Positions 10,607-60,954 of a stretch of 64,000 nt of DNA are shown piece after piece. A program made the position numbers and the translations under genes. Source of the stretch: Kudoa neothunni (Eukaryota > Animalia > Cnidaria); the NCBI GenBank assembly GCA_964304625.1, contig OZ199840.1:9594882-9658881 (forward strand), in the 5' to 3' direction. The first letter of the stretch is position 1; every line of letters begins with the position of its first letter. Under the pieces are notes generated by a model. It saw nothing but the letters and a program-made list of their open reading frames with translations, was not told the origin of the DNA and ran no database searches.

Positions 10607-13577
10607 TTAAATAGGGCGAGGTTTGTTTCTGACTCGCTGAAGTCGTTTTCTGATGTAACTTTCAATTTGATCAACGGTAAACTGATGTTTTAGCCCAAAG
10701 ATATTAGTTATTTTTCTTGGAATAGGAGTTTGGACACTGAGGAGTGAATGATGTTCACTGCGTGCCCGTTTTTGGCAAATCGAGCAGAGATGTAGAAGGG
10801 CATCCATTTTGGAGATGTCGATTTCTTCATTCATTTCTGCTTTGGATCGAGCTATAAGATAGGTGGAGAAGGGCTCTTCGATTCCTTTCATTTTTACTGT
10901 ACCTCGCTTTTTCATAAACAGCTCCTTAGAACTGACAGCAGATAGTAGTTTACTAGTTGAATATTTGTATAAGAAAATTTGTGATGAGAGTGAAATTATA
11001 TTTTTAAGTATTGCTTACTTGTACGCACTTTCGGTGATATTGGTAACTCCAGGGACACATGTAGTTTCAGTTCTACTAGCAATGTTTACTGTGGAACCGA
11101 AAATGCAATATCTTGGAAGTTTGCTGCCAATAACTCCCGCAACAATATCCCCCACATGGATCCCACAGGTAAGCTAAAATTCAAAACAGAATATTAAAAA
11201 TTGATAACTCTTATCTATAGTAGTCGATACAATACCACAAGCGGTATATTATTGATTTTTATTAGTTTAGCAACGTCAATCATTTCAATTGCACATTCTA
11301 TAATACTCAATACATTGGCAGGAACAGATGCATCCAATCCGCTGGTGATAAGGTATTTATCGGAAGCAGTCTCGATCTAAATGTATTTATATAATATCAA
11401 TATAAAAATTAGTTGATCTTATAAATTGATGAAGTGTAAGAAATAACCTTGATTACATTTTTCTTTTCTTTCACCACCAAATCGAACAACAAATACAAAT
11501 CATTCACCAACTTGGCCAGTTCGATTGGTTGTAGATACTCACACAAACGTTTAAAATTGTATATTCCAGTGAACATGACAAATGTATCCTTATAGAGGCA
11601 AGGTTCCGATTGTTTTCCTTGTTTGAGCAGTTCGGCTATTTTTGGTGGAATGACATTATACAGCAGAGAGTCGCGTATATTTTTCTCCGTATTTATTTGG
11701 CCTATAAGTCTATACAGTTCTAGGTATTTTTCTTCATTGACAGCGTTACTATGAAGCGCCTTGACAAACAGATTAGTTGAAACTAAGAAAAATAACAAAA
11801 ATTTGTGAAAAACTACCTTAATGTAACGGTCATATTTAAAGATACAACATTTATTCTCCTCATACGGCAAGTAATCTGATAAACATACACCCATTTTGAA
11901 CATTTTACTGATGGATAAAACACGGAGACCTCCCACAAAGACCAAAAAAGATTCTCCATTTGTGTGATTCTCAATAAAAATACCCTTTAGAAATAAATTG
12001 CTCTAAAATATATTATTAATTTTGACAAATCACTCTCTCTCTCTCTCCCACTCACATTGTACTCTCGTCTGGGTACGAATAGAAAAGAGAATCCGTTAAA
12101 TTTGATTATTTCTCTGTAGGTGTATTTTCTGACCCTGGGTTGCATCATAATAAATGTATCATAAAATTGTAAGATTTCCAGATCGATTTGTGGTATTATC
12201 TGTCGATAAAAATTTCCATGCTAAAATTGAATACATATTACAATTGCTTAATCAAACGATCTTTCTCTTTAGAACTGAAAAAATCCAAGAATGTTTTTAA
12301 TAAAAGTTTAATTAGAAATTTTCTCATTAAATTTTTCTCTACTATACTTTGATGATATTTAGTTGTTGATCGAGCACCAAAACATATGGGAATTTTTCAG
12401 TAAATGCGTTCAAAGTTATCGCACTTTTATTGACATTTACATCTGGTTCGATTATTTCATAATTTTTAGCTATTAAAATATTAGAATTTTTTCTTTGATA
12501 AATAGACTTTACTCCCCGCAACCCTGACACTACTATCTGGGAAATCTGGTGGGAATATTTTCAGTGACATTTGTCTATTCAAAGAATGAACCATTATGAT
12601 GTAGGATGATTGGTTGTCGTATTTTGATTGTTTTAGTGTAGATTCAATCTAAAATTATAATATTTTAACTACAATTAAAATTGGAAGTACACGCGGTTCT
12701 ATATTGAAGATGGAGTTGGCAATAGCTTTGATAAAACCACGAAATATCGGACCGTATGCTTCCACTCGAATGCTCACAAATTTTATTCTTAGAGATTGTT
12801 CAATCTTTTTCAAATACAACAATGGGAATGATTTTATTCCGATAGTTAGTTCAGGGAAGGAACTTTCGGTCCTCATATAATCCACCAGAGTCCTACCCAT
12901 TACGCTGGTGAGAGGTATTTCCTGGGTTCCCACTTGTCTGGAGACGTAGTCCACGTAATAAATGCCAAATTTTTCACATATCGAATCCAATTCCTCGCCT
13001 ATCAACAAGATTTCATACAGAAACAACAATCAATATATTATTCATATTCTTATTATTGGTTTCATTGAATTATTTAGTTGACTTAAATAATAAAAAAACA
13101 AAAATATTAAAAAATTTTCGTACCTAATATGATTTCTGCAGATTTAAAAATTTGGAAAAATATGACCGCATCGTATGAATGATGAAAAAGAAAGTCGCCA
13201 TTAAAATTAATAGCATCTCTAATTTCAATTAACTACGATAAGAGACACTATCATTGGATTGGTGTTATTACTTTATTTTATTCCAATCGTTCTCCGAGTA
13301 GGTTTCCTTCACAAAAAAATATACTCCAATAAAAATTTGTCCTTTCTAGTTTGTAATATTCGTTTCAAAAACATAATCCATATATTGATTTTCTACCATG
13401 TAAATAACTCCACCATCTCGTGCATCTATGTTAAGATATCCATCTTTATCTAATGGCCTAGATAGGAATATATAACGAGTAACCACCATTAATTAGCTTA
13501 TCTAAATTGCAAACATACTCTGTTGACGAGGTTTTAGAGGAATCGAAAAAGGCACTCAACGAGTTTCGGTCAAACAT
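10607..13577 (-). CDS. Soluble guanylate cyclase, beta-type subunit (H-NOX, PAS/HNOBA, coiled coil, cyclase), multi-exon
   Basis: H-NOX start M|KGQIF...DWNKIK (ATG 13399, intron directly after it); [11 protein letters not shown]; [21 protein letters not shown]; cyclase motifs [50 protein letters not shown] and RGTVKMKG. The upstream in-frame ATG at 13577 is tentative. Confidence 0.9.
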
Positions 13578-14351
13578 CCCATGGAAATCGCCTTAAATCT
13601 TCGATTCTTTCCCCACTAATTTACGCCTACATACTAATACCTCCTGCTTATTTAAATGTGCATAAAATTTCTCAAATAACTAAAAACTTATATTTTTCAG
13701 AAGAATTATAGTTATCCAAATTTTTTTTTCTAAACGTCTTCGACAAAAACTTGTTACTATGTTCGCGGCAATTATTAGTTTTGAGGACTGCTAGATAAAA
13801 TCCCATTTTAGCATAATGAATAAGTAAATCGTGGACATAAAATTCAAAATCAGCATTGAATGACGTATTGATCCTAAGTATATTTTAAATTAATAACTTT
13901 TAGCGATATTACATACGAATAAATTAATTAGATTAGATTATACTAAAGCTATTTAAAACAGCATAAAATAATACTTTATTTAAAAAATCATAAAGTTTAT
14001 TATTCAGAAGATATCTCTTGAAATAAGGCGGGGGATCTACAGACGGACCTTAAATCGGTACAAAGCAGCCTTTCTCGAATCGTTTTAGTTTTAGTATCCA
14101 TATCACAAGTAATATGCCATTAAAAAAGTTATATGTTTATATGAAGCAAATATTTTTAATAAAATTACACGAAAAAGAAAAATAATGTAAATAACATAAA
14201 TCCAACTGATAAATTAAATACTCTGACTTAATTATTATCTTTTGTAGGCATTAATTAAGTCGAACGAAGCACGTCATTAGATAAACACACGGATAATTCA
14301 AAATTTATAATTAAACTAGATATTTAATATTTTAATGCAAAATATCAGATG

Positions 14352-14379
14352 TGACATTCCGCGCTTGCGCGGAATGTCA
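14352..14379. other. perfect GC-rich 13-bp inverted repeat (possible Helitron/Helentron terminal hairpin)
   Basis: TGACATTCCGCGC-TT-GCGCGGAATGTCA, with ACTAG about 32 nt to the left. Confidence 0.4.
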
Positions 14380-15200
14380 ATATATTTCTTTGTTGATCTA
14401 ATTACAAATATAAAATCAGAATAGATAAAATAAGGATTTAAACAAATTTCTGATGTAAAGTTTTAGTTTATATAATTTTTTGGTGCAAATTGACTTTGGC
14501 TTGAAGTATAAAAATTCAAAGTAATTCAACAAAAAAAAGCTAAAACACTTAGTTTGACGCTAATAAATTTAAATTCACATTTTCCTTGGACTTTAATTGA
14601 AAAAAACATATAATACAGTTGTAAGGAATGAACCTAATTTAAAATGGATTATAGTTTATTTATCATTTCTTTTAAAAGGTAAACATTAAATAATTTTATA
14701 CATTAAAACATTTGGGGTTTATAATTATATTTTATCTGTGAACAAAAATTACATAAATAATCATTTTAATCTTAACTGCAAGTAAACAGGATGATGTAGA
14801 TAGAATATGTAAATTAATTTCAAATTTAATTTATCAAACTTATTTCAGTTTGGATTGCGCGTACAATATATTTTAATGAGAGATTCTAACTACGTAGAAT
14901 TCGTACATTTCGCATAAAGTACGATAGGCCGTATAATTTTTGTTGGTAACTCAAGTTGTGAGTCTCAGAATGATGCAATAGGAAAACTGTGATTTATCGA
15001 AGCCTTTCGAGATTTTAATCATTTTTATAATTCAGTATTCATGTAACTTAGATTTCATATAGTTAAAAATATTTTTAGTTTTTTAAAAAAATTTAACATG
15101 AAAAAGAATCAGATTTAAATTTTAAAACATGCGCAAGCGCTAACGGTGAGTGTGCTTGCTTCACCCTCAATAACGACGACAGAAATAATAAAAACACAAA

Positions 15201-16210
15201 ATGACTACAAAATTTGGATTGAGTTTTATTGAAAAATTCATCCGAAGTAAAAAAACTCAACAACGATATTTTATCGGCATGGGTTCCTTAATTTCTGTTT
15301 TTCAGTTCGCTCCAGAACTTAGCGTTTTATTGAACTGCGAGGGTGTGCTACACGCTGAATTGGGAATTATTCCAATTACGGACGAACTTCAAAGTGAATT
15401 CACCAAAATCTGCGCTAAAGCTAATATCGATCCTGACAGTGTTGTGATGAAAACGTGGTCCAGAGAAAAGTAAGTTTTTTGAATTAATTAAGATTGATCT
15501 TATAATTGATATAAATTAGTTTTAAACTTATTGGTGGGTCATGGCTGTACAAATTGTTTGGGTTGAAAAGTATAATGTGTGTGCCCGCTCTGTTTGAGTC
15601 TTCGTATGTGGAAAGACGTTCCAGAGGATACAGCCGTCTTACGATTGGTCGTGTCCAATGGAAGTCACCTATAGGCAGTTTGGCAGAGGTCTATTATGTG
15701 CCGAATATTTTGGAAAAATGTTTTGGAATTACTGGCCAACTGGCTGTTCACAAATATAACACTTGGATGTTGGCTTCCTGTTTTTGTTTGATGTCATTCA
15801 TGGCAATATTGTGCTATTTTTCGTTGTACTTCATGAACAGAGGATTCTACCTGCTTGTCATACCTGTTCCGGTGATAGCAAGTTTTTTTGTGCAAGGACC
15901 TCTGTGGAGCCTCTATCTCCGAATGGAAACCTTCATAGCCGATAGTTTTGTTATTAGAAAATTCCCCGAGTTGATAAAGCATGGGAAGACGACTCTTATT
16001 GGACCGCTTTTCTTTAATACTGCTATTAAAATTCCTGGCAACAAACAAAGACGTTTCGACAGATACTTCTATGAACATTACCGTTTATCAAAACTTCCGA
16101 ATGTTAGTAGATTGAAGCGGTTGGATAAATATGACCAAGCTCACCCAGCGAATACACTTGCAAATGCTACCGTTACAACAAGAGAAACGAAAGCAACAAC
16201 AGTGGAATAA
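15201..16210 (+). CDS. TMEM177: TMEM177-like mitochondrial inner-membrane protein, 2 exons
   Basis: One intron (~15470-15519) joins the two ORFs. Motifs PITDELQSEF, VPALF, VQWKSPIG, two hydrophobic helices and KLPNVSR are collinear with TMEM177 (PLPPQLQSLF, IPASF, VDWRSPAG, HLPYTTR, recalled from memory). Confidence 0.7.
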
Positions 16211-20741: not shown

Positions 20742-20813
20742 TACTAGCGGGAGTCAGCGCATCCTTGATTATACGTAAGGTGCCAACCGAGATAATACGA
20801 ATCAAGCCGAAAA

Positions 20814-22703
20814 ATGACCAACGCGAAGATGGTTTATTTCGACGTATTTCCTATCCAATGGATGCATGCGATAACTTGACTGTATAGAATGCTTTGAGCT
20901 CCAAGTTGAGAGACGTGGGCCGATACACAGGTAAGCATTAATGGTTGTTTTCTTTAAAAATAATGACGTGGGGATATAGAAGCATTGATGGACTATATAA
21001 AGAAGTTGCTCTCTAATAACAAGTCGAAAGCCGATCTAGTAGCTGATTTGACTCTGTTTCTACAAAATGATACGGAGCAATTTGTGATTGGTGAGTGAAG
21101 ACTGCGTGAATATGCCAGCATTGATTTTGCGGGTTAACAGTCTGTTATGTTAAATTTTTGTAGGCTGTTTGATTTGATCGAATCTATCAACAATGCACCA
21201 CACGATGAGATACAAGCAGTGGAATCGGATTCACAATTTCAAACTGTTGACGTTAATAATTCTGTTAACCAACATGTAGGTATGATGCCACCATCATCAT
21301 TTGATCATCAGAATGGGTATAATTTCGGTGGATATTTTGTTGCTTATTTATACAATTTTAGCAATGGAGCATTGAGCCTAAATAATCAACCTCAAAATGA
21401 TAACTTAGGTATCGATAGTAGCTCAATTGTCACTCATAATGAAATCACCATGGATGACGAATTGGTTGATACTCAAACCAATCACCCAAGGATACATGAT
21501 GGAAAAGCTGAGAATAAATCTCGTTTCAATAGGTTCATGAAAGATATTAAGCGAGTCAACGAGCAGCCAATCACTGCGTATTGATTTTTTTAGTTGCAAT
21601 TGTTTGATTTTAATGTATGCATTTAGTCACAAAGCTACCGGTACTCGTCGTTCTGTGCAGAAACCTGTGCGACCTAAAGTCACAGAAAAAAGATGGCCCA
21701 CTCGTTTGAGAGACGATCTATCGAATGATCTACGAAATGTGATCGATGATTTGAAATTGACTAAAAATAAAGGCTCATGCGATGGGATTTTCGTGGCGAA
21801 TGTCATGGATGTGCCAACAGTCTCACCACCACCACCACCACCACTATCTGATAGTATGTTATCAATCTGTTGTTTGAATAAAAATGATTAATAATAAACC
21901 CTTAGATGTTCATTTAATGGGAACAATAACTGATGACATGATGACCGCCGCCGTCCAAAAACCCCTTCCAGATGCAATCAGAATTAGCAATGGTCGATGT
22001 AAGTTTTGGCCAAGTTGTAAAAATGTCAACAATGATTGTGTCTACTATCATCCTACTATTCCCTGCATGTATTTTTGGCTTTATTACTGATTACTGATGT
22101 AATCCCGGCTCATGATTATTGATATAGGAAGTTTCCCAATTGTGTTTACGGAAACAAATGTCTCTACATTCATCCAGTTTGTAAATTTGGTGAAAAGTAT
22201 TATTTGCTTCTTTTTTTTGCGATACGTGAGGTCATTTATCCTATCAAGTTGCACCAACCAAAAATTGCACGTATACCCACTTGAATCGACCCACCAAAAG
22301 GTCGCATATTCCAAACAACGTTCAACATCCCACAAAAAATCTTTTTACATATAATGCTGATGAAACTACCTCTTCCCATGGTTGTTTGACCTCAAGCCCT
22401 ATGTCAAATGGTGGTATGCTGAACAGTCATATTTTCCCCTTTTATATTTTAACGTAACCTCCACTTCAATCAGCTAAATCCACAAACACCTCCTTTGGAT
22501 CTATTCCGTGCAAATACGGGGCCAACTGTCGCAACAAACAATGTCACTTCAAACACCCCAATCGCGATAACAACGGCACGGTCAGTCTTCATTCCATGGT
22601 CGTATATTTTAAATTTGCTGACTAATATTAAAATCGATAGACTATAAGATCGGATTCTAACCCAGCGATGAAGTATTTGGCTCCGGATCTTGTTTCCAAA
22701 TAA
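20814..22703 (+). CDS. ZC3H14: ZC3H14/Nab2 poly(A)-binding CCCH zinc-finger protein, multi-exon, with two apparent 1-nt indels
   Basis: PWI-like N-terminus (ALSSKLRDVGRYTEALMDYI...NNKSKADLVADLTLFLQNDTEQF) and fingers CKFWPSCKNVNNDCVYYH, C.KFPNCVYGNKCLYIH, CKFGENC...CTYTH and CKYGANCRNKQCHFKH. Confidence 0.9.
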
Positions 22704-22900: not shown

Positions 22901-23453
22901 TAAATCGAGACCTGAGCTTTTACTGCCCAATATAGGATAGATAGATAGAATAGATTAGATAGAATAGAATAGAATGTTGTTGTATGTGATTAAATTTTTT
23001 ATTTTTTCACGCAAAAATTATCTATCTTGCTTGAATTATTAAATTAAGGATGTGAATGGCATCGATCTAATAATAGGCCAACTTTAGATCAAGAGTTTTC
23101 AAAATATCAAGAAAATAGTTAGACATCTAACCATTTTTTGAACGTTAATATTTAACAGAAAATTCATAAATTCCTTTTAAACAAGGAGTCGCTTTTAATT
23201 GACCAATGACATTATGTGGAATTTTATCTCTATAATTCTATTATGGGATTTTTGATTGTTTCATTTCCATTTAATTCAACTTCTCTATATCATATGTTCG
23301 TTGTTTGCATTGTTCCTAGGAAAGAGCGGTCTCACCGTGATTTAATATGTTTTCTTGTTCATATCTACGTTTTGCCTAATAAAATTTGATTGCCTAATCA
23401 TTAACAATATTACCATCAATTTTCCCCCTTCTCCACGAAAAGTGAAATCTTAA

Positions 23454-24663
23454 CCCTCTAATTGTTTGTTTTACGGGGTAAATTTTACCCCAAAACGATT
23501 CTGTTAATGGTATATCTTTTTATACAGTAAATTAATACCTAATAGATTCCAGTTATTCTTCTAACAAAATTTCGTCGTTAGTTTAATGAAAGAATTTTTG
23601 TCGAAAAATTATTGTATAAGTTTTAATGTTTATTTTATCTTGTAAAGGTTTTTGGGGTAAAATTTACCCCATGTTTTTTCTGATTAAAAATATTTCAAAT
23701 AACGTAAACTATTTAGAATTTAAATATTATAAAATTCTTATGTGCAGTTTTTGTCGAGAGTAAGGAAATGTTAGATAAATTAATTAAAACGCATGCGTGA
23801 ATTATATGAAGATGTGTGATTCTAATGATTTCTTCGATGAATTTTGTTTATCTGAGAGTGAGTATCATGTTTTTGGTGAAAATGTCAACTTATCGGCGTT
23901 TCTTGCTGAAAAATTGTTGGAAACTCTTGACCATAGAGATATGTTAAAAACTAGAGATACCACCATGCCTCCAATCATCACCAAATAGAGCTCGTTGTGG
24001 CAGCATTTTTGTACTCCGTGAAAAATATATGTTGATATCTTATGTTCCAAATAAATCAAAATGCGTGATTTTTTTGAAGAAATCGTTGAACAATTAAACA
24101 AAACATTGTTGACAACAAAATCCACAAACAAAACAATAAAAACAGGTCTTAGCATTGTTTATGCACACCAACAGGAACCTCCTCTTGTTAATGTCTTAAT
24201 GTAAAGCGAACAACATGTAGATACAGTGACAGCGACAGTGAGAGGAAAAATGATAAAAAATAGTTTAAATAATGCGAAAATTGTTATAAGTTTTATTGTC
24301 CATTTCACGCATTTAAAAACTGTATCAACTTCTCATAACTTTAAAGAATCCTTCTTATTTTTTGTTTTAATATTTCAACTGGCGCAACACATTTAATTCC
24401 GCTGAATTAATGCAATTATTTTTTTAATGAACATCGATGTGTACCGACATAAGACGGATCGTAAACGAAGCCGATTATCGCGGGGATTACGTCAAAATTT
24501 AATATGCATTCGCCAGTGTTTCATCCATAGGAATTAAAAATTATTCTACAATATTGATTATTAGATTTTTTAAAGTGTTATAATTCCAAAAAGATGTGAG
24601 GTCAAATTTCCCCCAAAATCCATTCATTATTACACGTTCATCGTTTTTGGTATCATTAGAAGG
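23454..24663 (+). mobile_element. non-autonomous piggyBac element
   Basis: TTAA on both sides (23450-23453, 24664-24667); TIRs CCCTCTAAT / ATTAGAAGG; subterminal GGGGTAAA.TTTACCCC palindromes; acidic N-terminal remnant (23797-23988) and CRD remnant CENCYKFYCPFH (~24270-24310). Confidence 0.75.
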
Positions 24664-26730: not shown

Positions 26731-29598
26731 GTATTTTAATGTATGGAAAAATAATAAAAGAAAGTATGAGCTTGAATTTGTCTGATTACTTCATATAATA
26801 TTGTTATTTCATTTTTGATAATTTCTATTATGATGAATTAGGAATTTTACCATTAACCTCTTTATAACAAATATACGATATAAATTTTCACTTTCATAAA
26901 TATTATTGTCAACAAAAAGAAAATTTCAGGCATAAATTTAATCTTTTAAAATTGAAAGAGTTACTTTCTAGTGTATTTTCCTGAATTTAATTATTTCATC
27001 GACATTTTATATGGAGTTTTCTTTGTATTAAAACTAAAGAACGTTTAATATTACAAGAGAATTTTTTTTCCTGGATAACATTTAAAGAAAATATGTGTAT
27101 AACTACTTTTTTATGTAAATTTCGTTGATTCGACAAAATTTTAAAGTTGAAAAAATATCAACATTTTTATAAATCTAATTTAATGGGTTTTAAAAAGTTG
27201 TGCATATAAAAAAATAAGATGTATTTTGTACAATATTTGAAAAAATTTATTTTTAAATAATTTCAGTTTAGTAATAACCTTTTTATTACCAATAAATTTT
27301 GATTAATGTTCAAAAATAATATTTTTATTTATAAACGTAGATAAAAATGAGAACATTTAAACGGACACTTTTTGGGTAAAAAGCATTCACTCAAAAAATA
27401 TTACTCTAATAGCGTAATATTTTTATGGAACTGTCAACCAACAAGTTTTTTCTGTTTTCATAGATAACTTACTTGGCGACATAGCCCGCAATGGTGTTAA
27501 TAACGCCTTACTATTAATGGATAATATGAGATTACATAAAAAGATCTAGTAGAGGTCCAGATTCAATCCACAAACCATAGGTTATTATTTTTTCCATCAA
27601 ATTATGTCCATTGCAAGAAATAAATGACCACCTAATCAGGAGGAATTGATAAACGTAATTATGGTCAGCTCAAGTAGAGTTTCTAGTGATCATCTCCAAA
27701 ATTATGCGAATCAATCGGAATCCTATTTCGCAGCATGTAATAATTCGGAAGAAAATAACAACTAGATCAATTATATATACGTTGTGTTAAACACATGAAT
27801 TTTAAATTAATGCCGTTAAATATTGGATTTTTGTTTTAAAGTAAATAAAATTACAAATTTAAGTGGTAATTAAAAAAACAGTATAATTTTACATTTAAAC
27901 AATCCATTTTAGAGAAGCGTAAGTATTAAAAATCTGACACAGTGATTACAATCGATGATAAAAATAAATAAAAGAATTATAAATACTTGCAGACAGACTT
28001 TAATGTTCAAAAAATTATTCACTCTAACATAATTGGTCGTTTATAATTGTCAAAAAACATCTACATGCGATACAAATTAAATTTTATAATAAATAAGTTG
28101 CTTACTTAAAATGTTGCATCTAAGTTTTAAAATACTGTAATATTTATCATGCAGACGGCAACTTTACGTATTATTTATTATTATTATTATTATTAGATTA
28201 CATCACTAAAAAATAAACGAGTCATAAAAGAAAGAGACTGTTTATAATAATATAGATATTTGTTAAATAGTTATTTTTTTAAGCATTTCTTCCACTTTAT
28301 TATTGAGTTTTATCGCCATGAATAATATAATTCCTTGGGAATCCTTTGGTACAACACAAACTTTATTATGCAAGAATTATTCCAAACTCATTTAAAAGGG
28401 AAAGCTGTCGACATAGTATGAATTTTAATTTACCCCTGGTCATTCATCAATTTTACACAAGAAATAGCCTTCATTAAGTCTTATATTTCCCACGAAAAAT
28501 CATAAGATATATATGTTCCTATAAGACTGTCTAAAAAAGTATTGTAGATGAAGTTTATTCCAGCCAAAAATTGTTATTATCTTCATAGAAAACATTACCG
28601 ATGTCTAAGAAATTAATTACATGCTTAATTTACACCTACATTAGAAAGAGAAATATAATGAGAGTACATAAAAGATAAAAGAAACCAATAAAATTTTTTA
28701 TATTATTTCAAAAATAAGATATTTATGGTCAAATAATGTTTTTAATTTTTACTCAATAATATTTCTTTTAAGTTTCGCGCTTAAAGAGAACGTGATTATC
28801 CCTTAATGTTGTAACTAGAGGTTATTAATTATATTCCTGTCGAATAGTGACTACCAAGATGTTCCGAAATGATGTCAGGTCTTCTATAAAATTTACGTTA
28901 AAAATGCCACACTAATTCGTACTTTCGAGGAAAAAGGCTAATAGTTACGAAACGCTATGTTAGATTTTTGTTTCTTTGTCCTACGGGTGCAATTGCAATC
29001 TGTCTATGAACGTAATACCTAGTGGGTTAAAATAAGTGTAGCTCGTTATTTACGCACCAAAATTTAGTTAGGAAAATTAACGTATTTTATTATTGTTCTA
29101 ATAAAAATTAGTCGAAACGCAACCATGCGGTTCGATTCCACTCGCGCCACTTTAGATTTTGATGAGATTAAAAGTAGTGATGAGCCACTGATTCGTAGCA
29201 AAACATTATAATTCCTTAAAATCATAATATGATCATATTTTTCTAAATCATTCTTTTAATATGTATCTAAACGCATCAACATATCAAATAGTACAATCTA
29301 AAATCCAACATAAATTACCGACCACGCATGCTATATGGAAGCTTTATTGTAATCCTGTACAAGGTGAAACAAAGCGTGGCGAACGAACTGTTGAGTGGTA
29401 TAGATTAATCCTATTTAACTTACATTTTAAATACACGGATTATTATTTACGTTGTCATTGAAATCGGTGTACTACGACAAAAAATAATCTCACGACCACC
29501 TCAAAAACCTCATCTTATTGTTGTTAAATCCACCACTTCGATATATCTCACGTAAGTGTGGAATTGTTATGTCGTTAATTGAAAATAAAATTTTCTAG

Positions 29599-30503
29599 GT
29601 ACCCTCACAACGTTATTAACTAAGCTGCAACTTAAAGTTCATCTCATTTAAGCACTATCACGTGCTAAATATTATAGAACCACGTGATGGGGCTTTATTT
29701 GCAATCATCGAATTCTTGATTTTACACACTATCTGCACACTTTCTGCACACATTAATACGCCACTGTAACACCTAGTTATGTCGGTTGTTTTGCAAGGTT
29801 GAATACATCGACACTAAGCCACTATACCAGCTAGTTTATAATGTTTTGCTGGGATGGGGTGGAAAGGAAAGTTTCGCGTTCAACGAGATTATAGCAAGAA
29901 GTAGCCCTAAAGAAGAATTACAGTTCAATCATAACAAGAGTTAAAGCAGGAATAATTGACTCAACCACCAATGAAATTCTACTAATTATCTCTGAGGAGG
30001 GGAGCCCATTCATAGATTAATTTAAAATAATTGCCGCAATTTATTGCAAACACTGCACGCCACATTACCACACTGTTAACAAAGTTGGTGGTATTAGTTA
30101 ACGAGTAATGTCGGTTTGGTGGGTTTTGAGCCGGGACAGCAGTAAGAAGCAAATTAGGTGGACATCCAAGTGTATTGATAGATTATCTAAAAACGAAAGC
30201 GAAATAATGAGGTGACAAAGGTGTTAAAGACGCATAAATTCTGATGCTATGTTTAACACGCTTGATTTCGGTCCCCGTCGGTATTATTTGTAGTAGAGTA
30301 CCAACTGGGTTTGATCGGACGATATTCTCAGTAGGTATGTTTGTTATTATATACACGTTGATTGAACTCTTATGTACTACACGTGAAACAATAACCTTTA
30401 AGTATCATGTGTGCATGATTAATGTGTAATCAAGTTAATGATACTTGAGGTTATTGAATGATGGAGTTGTTTAAAAAAATCCACAAACACCCTTATCACT
30501 CCA
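29599..30503 (+). ncRNA. putative large structured RNA domain in the eIF4G leader (5' UTR and/or intron-hosted ncRNA)
   Basis: At least 8 consecutive hairpins, many with G-U pairs that work only on the + strand, plus long-range helices (see findings). It is preceded by a short leader intron at 29552-29598. Confidence 0.5.
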
Positions 30504-30547
30504 CACTCTACAACCCAGCTAAAATAATGTTATATTTAGATAAAACC

Positions 30548-31535
30548 ATGGTCAATCCTACAACTGCTACTTCAGCAGCAACCAACACAAATTCCAATAA
30601 TGAAGTGGATACATCACAGTCCACTAGAAGCAGTAATAGATCTTCAGTGAATAAGAATTCCTCATCCTCAAATGTTAATGTATTTTTTGATTATGATGTG
30701 CGAGATATTCACATTTGTGTGAATGAATGTAGACAACCTCCTCAACTGTTTACCGGACAGCGACTAGTGCGTCAGTTATAAGTGTTCCATCCGCTAATAT
30801 GACTACTACCACCGATACGTCTTCGCCATCATCCAACGCTGGCGGTGCTGATATGACCAGACAGGAAGGTTCCATCTCTCAACAGAACCCCGTTCCAACT
30901 GCAACTGCAACTCAAAGTCCTGGTATTTCATTTGTTTGTTTGTTTATTTATTCATTTATTTATTATTATTTTGTATGGAGCTAAACAAATCTGACATTGC
31001 ATTATTGTGCGCTTACAATGGTTTATATTGTGTTCAAACTTGTTGTGATAGTTACGCACATTTGTTAATTAAATAACTTAATAAACTTTCATTAACATGG
31101 GTTGATATTGATGGATATAGTTAACTATCATGAACCGAGACCACCCTTGTATATGTATCACCCAACACAATCATTTCCCAACAATCCTGCAATGCAAGTA
31201 GGTGCAAAATCCTACGCTACACCAATGATTCCTTTTCGACGAAATTGTCCCCCCAATATGTATAACCCAGGAGGTTTCTCGATGGATCCCAATTTCAGCG
31301 GACCTGCAACTTATTTCGCTCCACATGGTTATCCCACTCGAATGATGGGTACCAACCGTAATGGAATGATGCCAACTCAATATGCTGAAGGAGTTCGATA
31401 TTCACATCCTACCTTTGGATATCCTCCTCCACAACCAACATCCGCTCCTAGGAATCAAGAGTCAAACATTCAATTTACAAGTCTGATAAAAGGAGCACTG
31501 GGTGAAACACCCAAGGAGACTCCACCTCAGCAACA

Positions 31536-31566
<31 letters not shown>

Positions 31567-34500
31567 CAGCAACAACCACAATCACAACCACCACCACCCC
31601 AATCTACTAAAACTGGTAATTTTATCATAAAATTAGACATAGTTGGAACTGTTTTGTCAGTGGTTGAGGATGTGCAGAGAAAATCGTCAGTTGACGACGG
31701 AAAAGTGAACGAGCTGAGAGATCTGTTTAAGGAAATTGTCTGCTCCGATCATCCTCCTTCTTCTTCAAGAGAATCCAAAACCAATGAGGTTGTTATATCA
31801 TCGAACGTTATTGCCTCCAGCAAGGGGATAACCGACGTCTCTCCTAGAGACAGTGTGAATCAAGCTTCGATAGACTTTAGCGCTATTATCAAAAATGCAG
31901 CTCATGGTGAAACTCCGCCGGTGGCCACTTGTGAATATGGTCAAGAAATTGATGGGTTGAAAACTTACACAATCGAAGATATGTTGAATATTCGATCGAA
32001 ATTGACTTATGACGTGCAGAGAATGGTTCAAACTTTATCCAAATTCCGAATTGCTATACGAAGTAAGTACGCGAACAAATCAGAAAAATTGTGGAAAACT
32101 ATTTCCGAAAAGAAAGAGCTTGGTCTTGTTACTGATAAGGAAGTGTTCAATCATTCGTTGATGCAGATTCTCAACAAAATCACTGCGTTTAATTTCTATC
32201 AAAATTGGGCATCTTTCCGTAATCTCAAGTTCACATCGGCCGAATTGGTCACATTGTACGCGGAACTGTTGTATGACAAAGTGGTTGGTGAACATTCGTG
32301 GTCGTATGTGTATTCGGAGTTGGCTCGAATTTCCATCAACACTTTCAGTCAGATTCATGCAAAAGAAGGCTATGCTGATGTTTTCTTGAACACATTGTTG
32401 GCATGTGTCGATAAAGGCCTCCAAAGAGATCACAATGAAGAACAATGCATTAAAGAACTGAAAAAATCGACCAGCAAAGATATGGAAGCTATCGACAAAA
32501 TTATCGCTGAAACCGCCGAACGTGAAACTACATACAGAAAAAAACATTTTGGTGTGATTTTGTTTCTGGCCAATCTCTTCTACGATGATGTGATCACTCA
32601 AGAACGTATTGATGAGATAATTCTACAGATGAAAAAAGATACCGATTCTTTGGGAATTGAGTTGTATGTGTGCCTGCTGGAGAAGGTCTGCGTCAAATAC
32701 ATCGAGAACAACAATCGATCTATGATCACAACCATGTCCAAACATATCGACACATTGAATGATTATGTTTCCAGTCATTCCAAAGAACTCGTGTCCAAAG
32801 CCAGATTTGCTATGATGGATCTCTACAAGTATAAACAAGATAAATTCAAAACTCTACCGCCAAGAAACAAGGTGCCCAAACCGAATGAAGCTACAAGCGC
32901 TCGTAACAGTACTACTGCTGGTTCTCCATCGTCAGTCAACAGTGCCACCTCCACCGGTTTCTCCAGCCATGATTCACTCAGAAGAACGACAAATGTCGAT
33001 TCTAGCGTGTTCTCGAGAGGAGACCGGTCGAGCAATAGATTTAACGCACTCAACCGCGGAAGAGATCAACCTAGATTTAAAACTGAAGTCAGTGACAATA
33101 GAAGACCAAATCCTGATGCCTTTCATAATCCTAACAAAGGCAAAGGTTACAACAAAACTAGAGGCTCTGGTTCGTCGGCGGGAGTTTCATTCAATTGTGC
33201 TCGTTACGCTAGCATGGAAAGTGGAGTAAATGTGTCTTTGGATGTAGACAACGCCACTCTACCTACCAATGCTTCTTCTTTCACCAAGAGAACCGCAGCG
33301 GATTCGAGATCTGTTTCCTTGTTGAAACGCCAACCAAGCGCTGGAGACAAAGTGACCGTCACCAGCAACATCAAAGCATCTGGCATCCAACCCACTACCA
33401 TTTCTAGTTCTGCTGCTGCTGCAGGATCTTCTAATAATGATACGATAGCTGCTGGTGCTTCGGTTGCGAGAAGTGCATCAAGCATACAGGTTACACCCAG
33501 CAGAGCAGCATCAGTCGATCTGTCGAAACGTTTACTCTCTCAAGATGCATCCTCATTCGAGGTTGATGACATGAAAGACAATGAATTGAAAAATCTCGAA
33601 GAAACTGCCCAAACCCTTATTTCCAATTTCCACCAAAATGAGACAAATGTTTCGCGCTTTATCATCGAACTGTCCAGTTATTCGTTGTCCGATCGCATGG
33701 ATATTCTATTGAAGGAAGCTTTCAAATATTATAGTGATGTCTCTCATGGACATTACGCGTTTGGTATGCTGTTGAGCGAAATGATGGGTCGTTATCCAGA
33801 GTTGGTCAAAGTTGTTAAGGAAAATCTATCCGAACAACTTGTTGAGTTGCCACTTAATGCACTTGATGAACCAGTCCTGTGGGAATATTTCTATCTAACT
33901 GTGTTACCTATGTTGTCGAATGTGAGAATCTCATTAGATGATATTCATGAGCTCCTTTCTAAAACACCCGATGTGACTGACGTTGATGGCACCATCGTGA
34001 ATATGCTCGAATTGGGAGAGAAACGTCTTTCCAAATTCGAAGTCACCAAAATGGTCGCCAAACAAACTGGCAGTGCTGTTTGGAAACGTCTTACCGACGT
34101 CAGTAGCAGTTGCCAATCTGATATTATCAAAACAATATCCAAAAAGCTACCAATTGTCAATCCATTCGATTCCAACCAATTCTTCGATTGGGTAGACATT
34201 TTGCTGGACGTCAACTACGATTCTGTTTATCTCAGCAATTATTTCTCTCTTTTTTATGCTACGCCAGATGAGGGTTTGAAGGACGTTGCCAAATGTCTCT
34301 ATCTTTATGCTGCTATCGGAGACAATTTTACCAATGATCTCATCACCATTTTCAACAGACGTGACAAACAATGTCTGGATGAATTGTTCGGTGTGAATTC
34401 GTCAAGAAAGTTACTTTGCTATTTGGCTGAAATATTCGCCATGTTCAAATTCACACCCAACGGTAAGGATCTGTCCGAATATCAATTGTTATTAATATTT

Positions 34501-34665
34501 GATGCGCTTCTAGGTGTCATTGTAGATATTGGTGTTCCACTCTATAAGAACAACCATGTAGATAAAGATTGGCTCAATTCATGGAGACAGCAAGACGATA
34601 AACCTTACGATTCGTCCAAAGTCGATCCTGATATTTACAAAATTATCAAATCAAGAAGTGATTAA
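30548..34665 (+). CDS. EIF4G: Eukaryotic translation initiation factor 4G (eIF4E-binding motif, MIF4G, MA3-like and C-terminal HEAT regions)
   Basis: YTIEDML (~31966) is a variant YxxxxL-phi motif; MIF4G motifs MQILNKITAFNF, LYDKVVGEHSWSYVYSELAR, FGVILFLANLF and SKARFAMMDL; exons 30548-30679, 30733-30922 and 31121-34665 (with two probable in-frame introns). Confidence 0.9.
31528..31575 (+). repeat. CAG/CAA polyglutamine tract in eIF4G
   Basis: About 16 consecutive Gln codons. Confidence 0.95.
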
Positions 34666-43954: not shown

Positions 43955-46039
43955 TTATAGATCGACGACGATGTTCCGGTGATAACTAAATTTATATTTG
44001 AAGTAACGAAATACCAAAGCAACAACCATAGTTCCAACCAAGATTAAAATAACGCAAAATGACATTACAAGCGAAAAATTAGTGCTGATTCTCATTTTTA
44101 AATCAATTTTATTCTTCTTGAGATAACAGATGAATCCAGGCCCCGAGGAAATAATGTCAGGAATATGAGGCATCCTAATAGTATCTCTAGCTTGTTCAAA
44201 TATTGATAAATCCCTTTAAACAATATGATATGCTAGCTTCAACGTAAGAATCTTGAAAATTTACGATGACTCAATGAATGTTGGAGTTTGTACAGGTGCA
44301 GATGAGGTGGGAATTTCGCCAATAATAGACGTAAGACCATTGATATCCGTTACAGGTTCCGACACTTGTACAGATAAAAAGGTCTCCCTTTACAAAATAT
44401 TTTTTCAACAAATTGGCTGATGTATTTACTTAGTCTCAGTTTGTTTCGTTGACATCGTAATTTCTTTAATGGTAGAGGGAAAACTATAATAATAAGTTAA
44501 ATCTTCTTTCGTTTTCGAAAAGAAAATTTGCCCCATTAATCTAATAATCCTACAATAAGATTGGTTAATAGATTTACGTTGTTTCGAAGAATCCAGAAGT
44601 TTCATGAGTTTTCACAATGGCAGAGTCAACACGGTAGAATGTTGACAACGTTTCCGTTACTTTTTCAGACAATGACAATTCCCTTGTTCAGAATATATTA
44701 TGCCCAATTATAATAGTTACTCTGATATCATTTGCTCCTCAAACCATATAGATCCAAACATTGGATCAAAAAATATTTATTCACATCCCGGATACATTAT
44801 TGAATAGGTGCTATATTGATTGTTGAGTGAACTTTACAATATAATGTATACATTTTTTCAAAATATACGGCAATATTTTCAGAAATGAACTTTGGGCTAA
44901 CAATTAAACTTACTAACATACTCATAAGAAAACATTCTTTGTTCTGCTTGAATATTTCCTAAATATTCGTTTTCAAAGGAAATATCCAAGCTATCGATAC
45001 AATTTGCGCGTAGTTTTTCTTGATCAAGCAATTTTCGTTGACAGCCTGAATAAATAACTTTTTATTTTGGATATTATCTTTAAGTTTTAAACTGCTCAGT
45101 GAATAGTATATCTGTATACAATTAGATGATTAAATAATAATTATGATGTGACTTTTAATTCTTGAAATTCATCCCCAAAAATTATATGCTCGATACTGGA
45201 GAAATTACAGTTTTCAGACGTATTGCAAAGTTGATTGTCGTAGAATACCGAATTAATCAACCTGATGCAAGTGTAAAGGTTATATTTTCCAACAAAAGTT
45301 GCTGTATATTCTTTGATCGGTCGTGACCTACAGCTATCATTTGTTTTTGTGCTAGACCATTTATAGCTGTAATCATCGATGGCACAGGGATGAGATAGTT
45401 TTTTGGTTAAGTCCGCATTTGAAGCTATTGCGTGCTATGTATATTAAAAATTTAATTTCATCGTAATATTACGTTAGTTTACTTTTATCAGTAAATAATG
45501 TGTTTCCCATAGTAGTTTAGGCGCTCTTAAACAGGTAAATTCTTTCACAATTGCGGTGTACTTTATATTATGAATGGAAAATGCTTTCACCAGCCAACTA
45601 TTATATAATTCAGGTGTATTTGTGAACGCTCCTATTACAATTCTTGAATCAGATACATAAACAAACGACTTTTTATCTAAGTACTTAAAAAATTTAAAAT
45701 ATCCTGCCAATTATAATAAAAATTACTGTTGTTTTGCAGTTATAATTATGCTTTATCAATTGTATTAACGCGATGATCTGCTCGTCAGCAATCATCTGTC
45801 CTTTGAGAATTAAATTCATATTATCCGTGGATTGTATATAGGAGGAATCAACATTTAATATCTCGCCAATTTTACCCTCACTATATCATAAATTAATAAT
45901 AACTCATGCAATCAACTGACATTGTTTTACTTAAATGAAAATGAGTAGACAATGTAAACTTCGATGTTGTATTCCATTTTTGAATTCCAGTTACAACTTT
46001 TGACAGCTAATAGTATACAGTTGTGTCGGTTTCCGTTCC
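43955..46039 (-). pseudogene. disrupted paralog (copy A) of an unassigned single-pass membrane protein family
   Basis: Same exon order and motifs as 58274-60297 (KHNY.C.TTVIF, FSIH...YTAIV.EF.CL, WETHY.LIK, IFFDPMFGSIW, TNFSL-TM). In-frame TAA at ~44777 where the paralog has TAT, and a +1 frameshift at ~45690. The first exon was not identified. Confidence 0.75.
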
Positions 46040-46590
46040 CTATGAATGGTTATAGATATATATCAACTAAAGAAAAATTTTATTCAAATTAATTAATTAA
46101 TTGATTTATTTAGTAGAGCAAATACCAAATTTTTCTTGGAAACGGGATTTTTAAATATTTGAGTAACTTTAGTAAAGATCACTCGACTGCTAAAGTAATT
46201 TTTCTGTTTATTTGAAAAATTTTGCAAAAACAATGAAATCTTTTGTTTAAATAATTTAAAATATTTTGGATTAAATTGAAAATTGCAAAAAAAATAAATT
46301 AAACGTAATGTGCGTCAAAAAGAATAAAATTAAATTTTACGAAAAATAATTTTTTTAATAAGCTTTCAGCGGGAAATAACAATTTCTTTGTAGAACGACA
46401 ATTTTTCGAATTCTGTATAAAAGCGTATTTTTTTAATATCAAATTTATTATTTTATTGAAATCGAGCTTAAATTAAAAAATATCTTTAAATATAAAATTT
46501 AAACTTGTTTTGGGTAGAAAAAGTCAAGTAATGGTTAATTACTAATTTATTCTCTTGACGGGTCTCTTTTTTAAGAATAATATCATAATC

Positions 46591-52838: not shown

Positions 52839-55800
52839 GGCTGTGTCTATTTTGCCGGACGCGCTTTTTCTCTTAAAATAATAATTCAATCGCTACAATT
52901 TTTTCCTAAAAATATCTTTTATAAATGCAGAATATAAATTTAGTTTCATTTATCTTTTAATTAATAATTAGGTATCAACATACATTGAGGATATTTTAAA
53001 CTCATTCATAAGTTTCATTATAAATGACATTAAATTTTTATAAATCTGTATTATTTATACAATTAATCTAATTTTATGTGTTATAACAGCATAAACGAGT
53101 AAAATACCCTCTAGCGTGCGGTTGTAACTTTGATAGTCGCGAGTAGAATCACTATGGAAGGAGAGTCTGATCAAACACTACTAATTCAGGATATTACATC
53201 TGAACCTATGGTCGGAAATGCATTTACAAACTTTGAAAAGGCTAAAGAATTCATGGATAAGTACTCAAAGCGGAACAACTTTTGTTACTGGGTCCGAGAC
53301 TCTAGAAAAATCTCAACTGCCCTAAAAAAATTTGATAGAGACATGAACTCTGATCTTGTTTATTATGAAGCCACTTTTTGTTGTGTTCATGGTGGTAAAA
53401 ATGTAATTATCTATATAAAAATTGATGTAATTAATTTGAATTCAGATACAATCTAAAAGTGCTGGGAAGAGAAAAATCAACAGCCATAAAAGTGGTTGCA
53501 ATTTCTTCATTACACTGCGAGTTCCTAAAAACATGAATATGTTAGTTATTAGAAAATTGGATCTTACTCACAGCTGCAACAGAAATGAGCATTTTAGGGA
53601 TTTTTTACCAATGAATAGAAAATTAGATGAAGAAAGCAAGAATCTTATAAAAAATGTTCATTTTTATGATGGAAATTTAAAAAGAGTACAAGTAGAAATC
53701 ATGAACCAATCACAAAAAAAGGTTTCGTTGAAGCAAATCCATAATTATATCCAAACATTGAAAAAAAATGTTTCGTCGGATATTTCGGAATTGTTTAATT
53801 CAATAAAAAATTCTCACCCAAATGCAACTATCGAAATATTGCACAATAACTCCAATGAAATGACTGGAATATTTTTCCAAGACCTTTATATGAAAAACGT
53901 TATTAAAAAATTTCCCGAACTAGTATTTATGGATGCCACTTATAAATTAATCAATAATCGTATGCCATTGTATATATGTCTGTTTATCGATTCATTTGGG
54001 CAAAGTCAAATAGGAGCTATTGCTCTTTTATCTGAGGAGAGTACCGTGGCTGTTACCTGGTTATGTCAGTCTCTACTTAAACATAACGAGGAAATGTCAA
54101 CCAAAACAGTTTGTTTCATTACGGATAAAGACATGATTGAAAGAAACTCTATAAGATCTATATTTCCTAACGTAAGTACAAACTTATGCCTGTACCATGT
54201 CTTAAGAACATTTGGGAGAGAAATCTCTACATTAAGAATGGGAATAAACAAAGCCGAAAGAAAAACTGCCTTAGAGTTGATTCAAAAGCTTTGCTATACC
54301 AATGATCCAAAAATTTATGAAAATTACCATGAATTGTTAAATAATACATGTAACAAAAAAATCATTACTTATTATAATAAATCTTGGGATCCAATCAAAC
54401 ATGAATGGTGCCCGGCATACATGAACCTAAAGGGTACTTTTTTAAATAGAACAAATAATCGATTAGAATGCATAAATTCCAAAATTAAACAAATCATAAA
54501 AAAATTCTCAACAATTGAAGTCTTTTTCAGCGATCTGCTTATTTATTTATCTATCAAGTATGAGGACTGAGCGTGAGAATAAAGCAGTTAGAGAGTGGAC
54601 AACCCAAACTGTTGAGAAATTAAATTCAGACATTAACGAACAATATAAAACATTGTTGACTTCATATGCGTATAATATTATGCAAGATGAAATAAATAAT
54701 CATATCGAATCCTATGCCAATCCTGATCCCAATAGTTGTACATGTTGTTTCTACGTAAGTATGGAGTCACCATGTAGGCATATTATTTACGCTAGAAAAA
54801 TAATGAACATGAATTTATATGAAGAGAAAATTTGTAATAAGAGGTGGCACAAAGAATATTACCTGTCATTTATTCAAATGAACAAAAATTTATATCTTCA
54901 AAATCCTTCGTGTTGTGTGCAACCAAGTATTACAGAAATTTCGAGTCAGTGCCCTGTTCCGAATTCTGCTTTTAGGCGATACAGGGAGCTAGAAATTCTT
55001 TGTAAGAAAATAGCTTCGCTAGGGTCTGAAAAAACAGGGAGTCAATATGATTCATTAAAAAAGATTTTAGGTGAATTAATCTCTCTTATTTCCAATGAGG
55101 ATTCTCTGGATAAGGTGACTATTTTTTCCACTATTCATATATCAACATAATTCAGTTCAAGTTGACGTCTGAATTTTTCGTCGAAAACAATCAAGAGATT
55201 TTAATCTCAACACGTTATTAATGATAGTGTCTTTAGTAAAATTTTTATTTTGTGTTTAGATATTGAGGAATCATGAATAGAGAATGAGGATATACTAGAA
55301 ACAGTTAATGATAATGTTCCACCATCAATAACTGATATGGAGATCCTTAATATTGTATATGATACCACAACTAAAAATCCATCTTTGGAGGGTGTGTATC
55401 TTTTGTCCATTTTGCTAAATTCATAAAATTATAAGAATTAAACTGCCAACAGTAGTGAAATTGAGAGGTAGACCAAAAGGTGTATTTCAAACAGTTGTAG
55501 GTTTGAGAAAAAAAAGATAATTATGATAATGATGATAGTAGTAATAATAACAACACCAATATCGATATATTATATTCAAATATAATTTTATGTGGAAGTT
55601 AAACAGTCACAATTATTTGGCGTTGCAATACAAGATAATTTCAAACATTTATTATTTAAAGTAGAATACTCAACATTTTATTAAATTTTAGTGGTGTATC
55701 AATCATCTGATAAAAACATTTACCTAATTATAAAAATTTTAAATACGAATTGGCCAAATAGTTTTACTTTACTGTATTTTCATTTGGATATTATGGATGC

Positions 55801-60297: not shown

Positions 60298-60954
60298 CTA
60301 TGTATGTTTATGTATATATATTTCACGAAACACCAGATATTTTAATTTAATTTAAATGTGATAACATGCTTATATTTAGTTATTGTAGAAGTTCTTGATC
60401 AAACTACAATACTTATTTGAATACATAAGACAAAGAATATTAATTTGAATTTATTCTTGAAATATAACTTTACTCTAGTTTCAAATAAACATCAAACAAT
60501 ATAGTTGTATATCAAGTTTTTATATAAATATTATATAAAAAGAAACTGTGAACTGGAAAATATTTTATTCTATCATAAATGAAAAATGTCTTGTAGAAAT
60601 CATCCAAACACGTCGTAATCATAAAAATAATGGCTAAATGATGACAGATAAAGAACTTACACCTTTTAGGCCATCGGATATTATTGGTCATCAATTAGAT
60701 TTTGGAATAAATGGCATTTAGTAAGAATAATTGTTTAAAATTAAAAACAAACCATAAAGGTTTTAGGTAATGATAAACTGTGTGACAACAAAAAATCAAC
60801 ATTATCGCGACTTTTTGTCGCTTTAATTTTTTAACTGTTATTTTCTACAGAAAAGCATTTGGGGAAATGAAAAACCAAATAAAGATAAGTAGTTCAAAAT
60901 TCGCATATATTCCTTGGTATAATCTTCCTGTTGATCATTTAAGCTTTTATGTAT

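What the first reader, a model, noticed from the sequence alone, without database searches (positions are those of the whole stretch)
29599..30503. ~0.9-kb densely structured RNA domain in the eIF4G leader
Seen: stems at 29655-29664/29681-29690, 29780-29785/29808-29813, 29819-29831/29848-29862, 30062-30080/30097-30111, 30221-30228/30252-30259, 30274-30285/30297-30309, 30352-30386/30405-30428 and 30462-30503. Long-range helices: 29603-29620/30434-30450 and 29640-29648/30206-30214. Many pairs are G-U on the + strand; the region shows no recognisable transposon sequence and no long ORF, in a window where other leaders appear short. Established: eIF4G-family mRNAs are reported to have regulatory/IRES-like leaders, and translation-factor genes often host intronic ncRNAs. 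Inference: an undescribed autoregulatory leader or hosted ncRNA; this is my best candidate for a novel system here.
Basis: partly seen in the sequence, partly recalled or inferred. Interest (0 to 1): 0.78.

Follow-up and report, generated by a model that had tools for sequence, protein, structure and literature searches.

The report
Long spliced leader of eIF4G gene
This is the non-coding front end of a translation-factor gene, holding an intron and many short upstream reading frames; it folds no better than shuffled sequence overall, but one strong long-range pairing and two hairpins stand out and likely help tune how much of the factor is made.

Summary
Partly confirmed. The listed stems exist as complementary segments, but 29599-30503 is not a compact folded domain. 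MFE z is about -1.4 (+) and -1.0 to -1.2 (-), G-U content is no higher than in shuffles, and only 2 of 10 listed stems are well populated. One contig of a close relative splices out 30335-30539, so the last ~170 nt are intron. Rfam finds nothing. Best reading (0.45): a long, likely twice-spliced leader with nine upstream AUGs that likely dampens translation of a divergent eIF4G. Main rival (0.28): promoter DNA. Transcription upstream of 30309 and covariation are untested. The scan's notes showed no earlier report of this element.

The parts
29100..29480 (.). Likely promoter region (inferred): CpG-rich patch with two CATGCG/CGCATG motifs (29124, 29325); the NRF1-like label is recalled
   Evidence: CpG o/e 1.3-1.8 in 29001-29600 vs 0.56-0.9 in 29601-30200 (but 1.38 in 30201-30400); the same motif sits 73 nt before the ATG of the gene at 15201; 31 motif clusters in the window, not validated as promoters
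29495..29550 (+). 5' arm of a predicted 41-bp long-range RNA duplex; ends 1-2 nt before the putative splice donor
   Evidence: -46.9 kcal/mol on +, -30.4 on -; helices of 13, 10, 7 and 6 bp at p>=0.96 in a fold of 29400-30700
29552..29598 (+). Putative 47-nt leader intron (GTAAGT...TTTTCTAG); not seen spliced
   Evidence: 24% GC, 41% T like the other introns, between flanks of 36-39% GC; pattern in 6.1% of 3000 shuffles; 14 such patterns in the window on both strands
29599..30334 (+). Non-coding putative leader exon with nine ATGs (29687, 29779, 29841, 29854, 29971, 30108, 30207, 30244, 30249); only 30309-30334 is seen in a spliced contig
   Evidence: 39% GC, exon-like; codon score -0.16 to -0.18 vs +0.12 to +0.15 for held-out coding pieces; ATG list; X5 record 17
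29650..29695 (+). Hairpin formed by two inverted CACGTG boxes (29659, 29681) and their flanks
   Evidence: z -5.71 on +, -3.92 on - after trimming to the hairpin; p 0.97-1.0 in all folds
30102..30162 (+). 3' arm of the predicted long-range duplex
   Evidence: all 6 wobble pairs are U(5' arm)-G(3' arm)
30221..30259 (+). Small stable hairpin covering the in-frame upstream ATG 30244
   Evidence: p 0.99; z -3.13 trimmed; ATG 30244 would add 33 residues after splicing but scores non-coding, -0.27
30335..30539 (+). 205-nt GT-AG intron in the leader; holds the third CACGTG box (30380)
   Evidence: joint 30331->30537 (cut +3) in one X5 contig, 23 nt on the short side; X1 and X2 run through unspliced; intron z -2.74 (+), -2.65 (-)
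30389..30456 (+).
   Evidence: -27.4 kcal/mol, z -7.15 (+) and -6.81 (-) trimmed; the only one of 1847 local elements at <= -27.4 with GC <= 36%; 99.2% vs 0.8% of 1000 sampled intron folds
30548..34665 (+). Divergent eIF4G-family coding region, 1271 aa in the model 30548-30679, 30733-30922, 31121-34462, 34514-34665; introns 30680-30732 and 34463-34513 seen spliced, 30923-31120 inferred
   Evidence: phmmer 56 hits, two at 38% identity; 4 of the 7 top hits looked up carry names, three of them eIF4G-like names from animals; Atlas 0.96 to MIF4G eIF4G1-like clusters; own MIF4G score below Pfam cut-off (E 4e-4), both homologs above it

Best explanation
The stretch is non-coding sequence in front of a divergent eIF4G gene, and it is likely a long, twice-spliced 5' leader that dampens translation of eIF4G, not a folded RNA domain. 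Seen: the 205-nt intron 30335-30539 is removed in one contig of a close relative, joining 30309-30334 to the coding exon; nine ATGs precede the main start; three CACGTG boxes lie here. Inferred: transcription starts near 29350-29490; a 47-nt intron (29552-29598) is removed; in the ~0.8-kb mature leader the end of exon 1 pairs with 30102-30162 and closes a loop that holds five upstream AUGs, with a sixth in the 3' arm. Scanning would have to unwind this clamp and pass the short ORFs, so output would be low and would depend on eIF4F helicase activity, which could feed back on eIF4G's own level. The CACGTG boxes likely act as DNA sites for Myc-type factors, and the intronic hairpin would be lost with the intron.
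For: Splice joint with canonical ends in X5, which shows two more GT-AG joints in this gene. Exon-like composition of 29599-30334 (39% GC, 29% T) and intron-like composition and ends of 29552-29598. CpG-rich, motif-bearing patch upstream of exon 1. Duplex: -46.9 kcal/mol, first of 1594 plus-strand tiles; 0 of 806 target shuffles and 1 of 863 query shuffles; 0 of 1917 with both arms shuffled; 0 of 67 region-wide local shuffles; not detectable as a Watson-Crick inverted repeat (score 23 vs shuffle best 31); 6 of 6 wobbles read U-G on +; persists at p 0.97-0.98 in the spliced-leader model. Best compatible helix set for 29480-30540: -149.7 vs -105.9+/-18.6 on + (0 of 60), 20 of 60 on -. Human EIF4G1 has MYC-bound E-boxes (PMC4406810, passages).
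Against: The leader-intron joint rests on one contig with 23 nt on the short side, a class the tool warns can come from other organisms or repeats. The 47-nt intron is unproven (6% in shuffles). The spliced leader folds like its shuffles (z -0.25, 17 of 42). On the minus strand 4 of 1594 tiles reach -46.9 or better, so the duplex is fifth of 3188 by energy and third after composition correction; I found it after looking. The helix-count excess is matched by the antisense strand of a coding tile (20992-22052: 58 vs about 33), so it is not specific to functional RNA. ATGs are not clearly depleted (9 vs 12.8, p 0.11). No short ORF ends near the stem base, so a viral-type shunt is not set up. Human eIF4G mRNA barely responded to added initiation factors in vitro (PMC4718060, passages). 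No covariation evidence.
Confidence: 0.45

Rival explanations
1. Most of 29599-30300 is promoter/enhancer DNA. The mRNA starts near 30300 and has a short first exon plus the 205-nt intron. The stems are side effects of palindromic and inverted factor-binding motifs and of C-rich and G-rich patches.
For: 3 of the window's 5 CACGTG lie in these 905 nt (6 of 5000 shuffles); two listed stems contain them; CCAC and CACG are the most enriched 4-mers; ordinary bulk folding. Precedent: putative Hoxa IRES 'structures' proved to be E-box promoters (PMC9456764, passages).
Against: One E-box lies inside the spliced intron, so E-boxes here do not mark upstream DNA only. Exon-like composition over 736 nt and an intron-like 47-nt segment on the sense strand. 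The duplex works much better as + strand RNA than as a DNA repeat.
Confidence: 0.28
2. An independent ~670-nt non-coding RNA (29495-30162), closed by the long duplex as its terminal stem, is transcribed just upstream of the eIF4G gene.
For: Terminal-stem geometry; plus-strand excess of helices that survives removing the busiest hubs; non-coding.
Against: No Rfam match even at E<=10; only one 6-nt match to a TTAGGG template, no exact C box, no Sm-like site, four T4 runs inside (motifs recalled); inner fold no better than shuffles; an intron-like segment sits directly inside the 5' arm.
Confidence: 0.1
3. The 205-nt intron hosts a small RNA (miRNA-like or atypical snoRNA) made from the hairpin 30389-30456.
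For: Strongest AT-rich hairpin of the window; human EIF4G1 is paired with the intronic snoRNA SNORD66 (PMC7072173, passages); the gene's other ~200-nt intron is unstructured (z +0.65).
Against: Nearly as strong on the opposite strand (z -6.81), as any short inverted repeat is; best Rfam scores 13-20 bits against cut-offs of 44-100; no D box in the intron and no H or ACA box after the hairpin (and the sequence); no basal stem in the fold; ends lie 54 and 83 nt from the splice sites.
Confidence: 0.07
4. The region is an IRES that lets eIF4G be made when cap-dependent initiation is low.
For: Long candidate leader with nine upstream ATGs; an IRES and autoregulation have been proposed for human eIF4G mRNA (PMC13409590 and PMC4718060, passages).
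Against: [quoted passage not shown]
Confidence: 0.05

Closest known systems
Long, intron- and uORF-containing leaders of translation-factor mRNAs (human EIF4G1, EIF4G2; eIF1 and eIF5 autoregulation)
   Same: Non-coding leader in front of an initiation-factor gene; upstream AUGs; an in-frame upstream start; feedback has been proposed or shown (PMC6573783 abstract; PMC13409590 passages).
   Different: No sequence homology shown. The known loops use start-codon context (eIF1, eIF5) or PCBP2 binding (eIF4G2); a long-range cap-proximal duplex was not seen in the passages read. No function was tested here.
E-box promoters mistaken for structured leaders or IRESes (mouse Hoxa9 and other 'hyperconserved leaders')
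   Same: CACGTG boxes within a predicted stem, GC-richer DNA upstream of the start codon, 3' splice sites in the region (PMC9456764 passages).
   Different: Here one E-box is inside a spliced intron, and there is an RNA-type long-range duplex; the start site is unknown.
Ribosome-shunt leaders of plant pararetroviruses and foamy virus
   Same: Long leader predicted to be closed by a basal stem with short ORFs inside and an AU-rich stretch behind it (PMC5902531 passages).
   Different: The defining short ORF ending 7-8 nt before the stem is absent (nearest stops end 82 and 87 nt upstream); the enclosed part is not stably folded.
Intronic snoRNAs of initiation-factor genes (SNORD66 in EIF4G1, SNORA63 in EIF4A2)
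   Same: A hairpin-bearing intron in an eIF4G-family gene.
   Different: No Rfam match and no usable C/D or H/ACA boxes.

Membership tests
eIF4G family (host gene) | MIF4G domain and similarity to eIF4G1/3 | tested here: met
   Pfam E 4e-4, below cut-off, for the gene itself; both 38%-identical homologs pass the cut-off; named hits are animal eIF4G; Atlas 0.96
eIF4G family (host gene) | eIF4E-binding Y-x4-L-hydrophobic motif before MIF4G (motif recalled) | tested here: inconclusive
   YTIEDML here, YTFDDML and YTIEEML in the homologs: a conserved variant with M in the L place
Long structured 5' leader | Region is part of the mature mRNA | tested here: inconclusive
   only 30309-30334 is seen in a spliced contig; upstream part rests on composition and splice motifs
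Long structured 5' leader | Folding more stable than shuffled sequence | tested here: not met
   z -1.4, +0.69, -0.14, -0.25 for four boundary choices; single elements do exceed chance
Long structured 5' leader | Covariation in orthologous leaders | not testable with these tools
   no genome held; no related loci found; the relative's contigs do not reach the arms
IRES | Cap-independent initiation free of promoter and splicing artefacts | not testable with these tools
   needs reporters; no Rfam IRES match
Pararetrovirus-type shunt | Short ORF ending a few nt before the basal stem | tested here: not met
   7 ATGs in 29100-29551; nearest stops end at 29408 and 29413, stem begins at 29495
C/D box snoRNA | C box RUGAUGA and D box CUGA 60-150 nt apart (recalled) | tested here: not met
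   no exact C box; D boxes only at 29992 and 30241; none in the intron
H/ACA snoRNA | Hairpin-H box-hairpin-ACA with pockets 14-16 nt from the box (recalled) | tested here: not met
   H-like hexamers at 30386/30388 precede the main hairpin, which is not followed by ACA; its lower stem is 19-20 bp; best H/ACA model 13 bits vs cut-off 48
microRNA or mirtron | Basal stem for Drosha, or hairpin ends at splice sites; small-RNA reads | tested here: inconclusive
   no basal stem, ends far from the splice sites; small-RNA reads not available
Telomerase RNA | Template of about 1.5 telomere repeats (TTAGGG assumed, recalled) | tested here: not met
   single 6-nt match at 29905; the organism's repeat is unknown
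Multicopy repeat or MITE | Further copies | tested here: inconclusive
   none in the 64-kb window; X1 and X2 cross it in one contig at flat depth; rest of the genome not held

The most novel reading that the evidence does not exclude
A cap-proximal RNA clamp: the end of the first exon pairs over 41 bp with a site about 550 nt downstream, shutting upstream AUGs in a loop, so that the eIF4G message measures the cell's own eIF4F unwinding capacity. The many competing C-rich and G-rich partners would let the leader switch folds. This would be a structure-based self-control of eIF4G, distinct from start-codon-context loops (eIF1, eIF5) and from IRES models.
Probability: 0.12. Interest if true: 0.65.

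Novelty: new member of a known kind. Interest (0 to 1): 0.3.

Why it matters
If ordinary, it shows how E-box palindromes, competing G-rich and C-rich motifs and an unrecognised intron can look like a 0.9-kb RNA domain. If the long-range duplex is conserved and functional, it would give a concrete, testable form to the old and disputed idea that eIF4G controls its own translation, in a compact animal genome where a leader of 0.8 kb would be costly to keep.

Tried and rejected
No RNA holder was listed by the run search; X5 is labelled 'DNA?' and I read it as RNA from its three GT-AG joints. X5 and X6 lay nothing on 28500-30308 at 80% likeness, and the X5 contig begins at about 30309: a part without cover, one study, low depth, so not used as evidence either way. 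Only 4 of the 23 listed runs were laid; the three raw RNA runs were not, so transcription upstream of 30309 and leader lengths of other genes stay open. No whole genome is held. Protein searches: none at E<=0.001 among 1399 and 111 candidates; one homolog among 7987. No related locus among 474 pattern matches in metagenome contigs; exact patterns found 0 in metagenome and 0 in viral contigs. Internal duplication (22-nt look-alikes at 29757, 29815, 30056): best direct score 34 vs 30.5+/-3.6, 1462 of 8158 shuffles as high, rejected. RNase P/MRP and SRP resemblances seen by eye from recalled motifs: no Rfam support and no P2 helix, rejected. Hidden coding exon on either strand: best frame +0.09 in a first model with one mis-framed training piece; whole-frame scores after correction -0.06 to -0.18, rejected. 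The bacterial promoter scan and the tRNA scan (0 genes) do not bear on it. Structure shortening long introns in general: the second ~200-nt intron is unstructured. A pseudoknot between stem 30352-30428 and 30442-30456 is possible on paper but leaves a 2-nt loop across 15 bp; not modelled. The organism was not identified; 'myxozoan-like parasite' was a guess used for two paper searches and is not supported by any search.

Full report
Setting. The window is AT-rich eukaryotic DNA with short introns. No genome is held and the organism was not identified; two unreviewed notes on another piece call it a compact animal genome. The ORF at 31096-34665 is a very divergent eIF4G-family protein. Its own MIF4G score is below the Pfam cut-off (E 4e-4). 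A search of 1.84 billion representatives gave 56 hits, two of them at 38% identity over nearly the whole query. Both pass the MIF4G cut-off. Of the 7 top hits looked up, 4 carry names, three of them animal eIF4G1/3-like. The Atlas gives 0.96 to eIF4G1-like clusters.

Gene structure. I laid 4 of 23 listed runs. X1 and X2 cross 28500-30886 in one contig each. X5, a few percent different in the coding region (72 other letters in its 1921-nt contig), shows three GT-AG joints: 30335-30539 (205 nt), 30680-30732 and 34463-34513. I therefore read X5 as RNA although it is labelled 'DNA?'. The first joint rests on one contig with 23 nt on the short side, a class the tool warns about. With an inferred intron 30923-31120 the exons give one 1271-aa frame from ATG 30548. 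So 30335-30503 of the finding is intron. Such a pattern arises in 6.1% of shuffles and is unproven. 29599-30334 has exon-like composition, no coding signal and nine ATGs, one in frame.

Check of the observation. Whole-region MFE z is -1.41/-1.23 and -1.45/-1.04 with 31 shuffles. The strand difference is ordinary (12 of 31) and the G-U share is below the shuffle mean. The part before the intron has z +0.69. In 1065 sliding windows the region's mean z is -0.37, and 26.5% of equal stretches do as well. Two of ten listed stems are well populated, two partly, six hardly; both long-range helices are at zero in the full region, though 29640/30214 forms when the exon is folded alone. Strong potential helices number 39 on + against about 25 in shuffles that keep local composition or 3- to 5-mers (0 of 60, 0 of 40), and 20 on - (the energy table is recalled). 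The tile 29480-30540 ranks first of 59 on + and second of 118 strand-tiles. The one above it is the antisense strand of a coding region, so the measure is not specific to functional RNA. The helices are long-range and compete for a few G-rich hubs.

Discrete elements. (1) Hairpin 29650-29695 is two inverted CACGTG boxes with flanks. Three of the five CACGTG in 64 kb lie in the finding (6 of 5000 shuffles). The z-scores of trimmed hairpins are inflated by the trimming. (3) A 41-bp duplex, 29495-29550 with 30102-30162 (helices of 13, 10, 7 and 6 bp), appears when the fold is extended upstream. It scores -46.9 kcal/mol on + and -30.4 on -. It is first of 1594 plus-strand tiles; 0 of 806 and 1 of 863 one-sided shuffles reach it, as do 0 of 1917 two-sided and 0 of 67 region-wide local shuffles. 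All six wobbles are U-G on + and the arms are not a detectable Watson-Crick repeat. With it, the compatible helix set beats 60 of 60 shuffles on + but not on -. Against it: four minus-strand tiles are as strong, it is third of 3188 after composition correction, it was found after the fact, and the spliced leader as a whole has z -0.25 (exon 1 was cut one base too long there).

Known families. Rfam gives 0 matches at gathering score in the window and only 11-20-bit matches at E<=10. snoRNA boxes, a telomerase template and a viral-type shunt ORF are missing (motifs recalled except the shunt, PMC5902531). No second copy lies in the window. No homologous DNA was found for covariation.

How it most likely works. 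I put 0.45 on a long, twice-spliced leader whose upstream AUGs and long-range duplex likely make eIF4G translation low and dependent on scanning and unwinding, with the E-boxes acting at the DNA level. Shown: the host gene, the 205-nt intron (one contig), the ATGs, the boxes and the complementarities. Inferred: the start site, the 47-nt intron, duplex formation in cells, and any feedback. The main rival (0.28) is promoter DNA with a start near 30300, as for the Hoxa 'IRES' regions (PMC9456764). A separate non-coding RNA (0.10), an intronic small RNA (0.07) and an IRES (0.05) rank lower.

Literature seen. Passages only: PMC9456764, PMC9945437, PMC4406810, PMC10782387, PMC7072173, PMC5902531, PMC4718060, PMC13409590, PMC8855578. 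Abstract and outline: PMC6573783. No supplements were read. Ten searches listed no paper on this element or on a long-range duplex in an eIF4G leader.

Verdict. The finding as stated, a dense 0.9-kb RNA domain, does not hold. The region is the regulatory front end of an eIF4G gene with three local features above chance, one of which deserves a comparative test. New member of a known kind; interest 0.3.

Noticed in passing
window 31966-31986: Conserved variant of the eIF4E-binding motif (recalled) upstream of MIF4G in this protein and both homologs, suggesting an eIF4G1/3 type rather than DAP5 type.
   Followed up: partly
window 30352-30456: Two mutually exclusive long hairpins in the intron; the loop of the first is the 5' arm of the second (switch or pseudoknot geometry).
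   Followed up: partly
window 6735, 15128, 20415, 23790, 35052, 37352, 37786, 51589: Clusters of a CATGCGCA-type motif (NRF1-like, label recalled); the one at 15128 lies 73 nt before an ATG; may mark promoters in this genome.
   Followed up: partly
window 47338 and 49507: The two other CACGTG boxes are both GTCACGTGAT; no gene was assigned to them.
   Followed up: no
window 14341-14460: Lowest 120-nt folding z of the window (-6.59); a short GC-rich inverted repeat in intergenic DNA.
   Followed up: no
window 23432-23707 and 62600-63353: Strong long-range complementarities: a 23-bp palindromic repeat pair, and a region with duplexes on both strands; likely repeat elements.
   Followed up: no
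window 53115-55150 with 52839-52953/55830-55944: MULE/SWIM transposase ORFs flanked by a 115-nt inverted repeat at 97% identity: a Mutator-like transposon with terminal repeats.
   Followed up: partly
window 43958-46063 and 58277-60321 (- strand): Two paralogous regions (68% over ~980 nt); the second has a weak GDA1/CD39 nucleoside phosphatase match (E 6e-4) and an in-frame repeat array at about 58600-58875.
   Followed up: partly
window 10607-13029 (- strand): Soluble guanylate cyclase-like gene pieces (HNOBA and Guanylate_cyc above cut-off).
   Followed up: partly
window 20750-22700 (+ strand): Multi-exon gene with CCCH zinc-finger-like pieces, read by eye as ZC3H14/Nab2-like (recalled, no tool match; one search gave none).
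   Followed up: no
window 15201-16210 (+ strand): Two-exon ORF with no Pfam match and no homolog among 111 candidates.
   Followed up: partly
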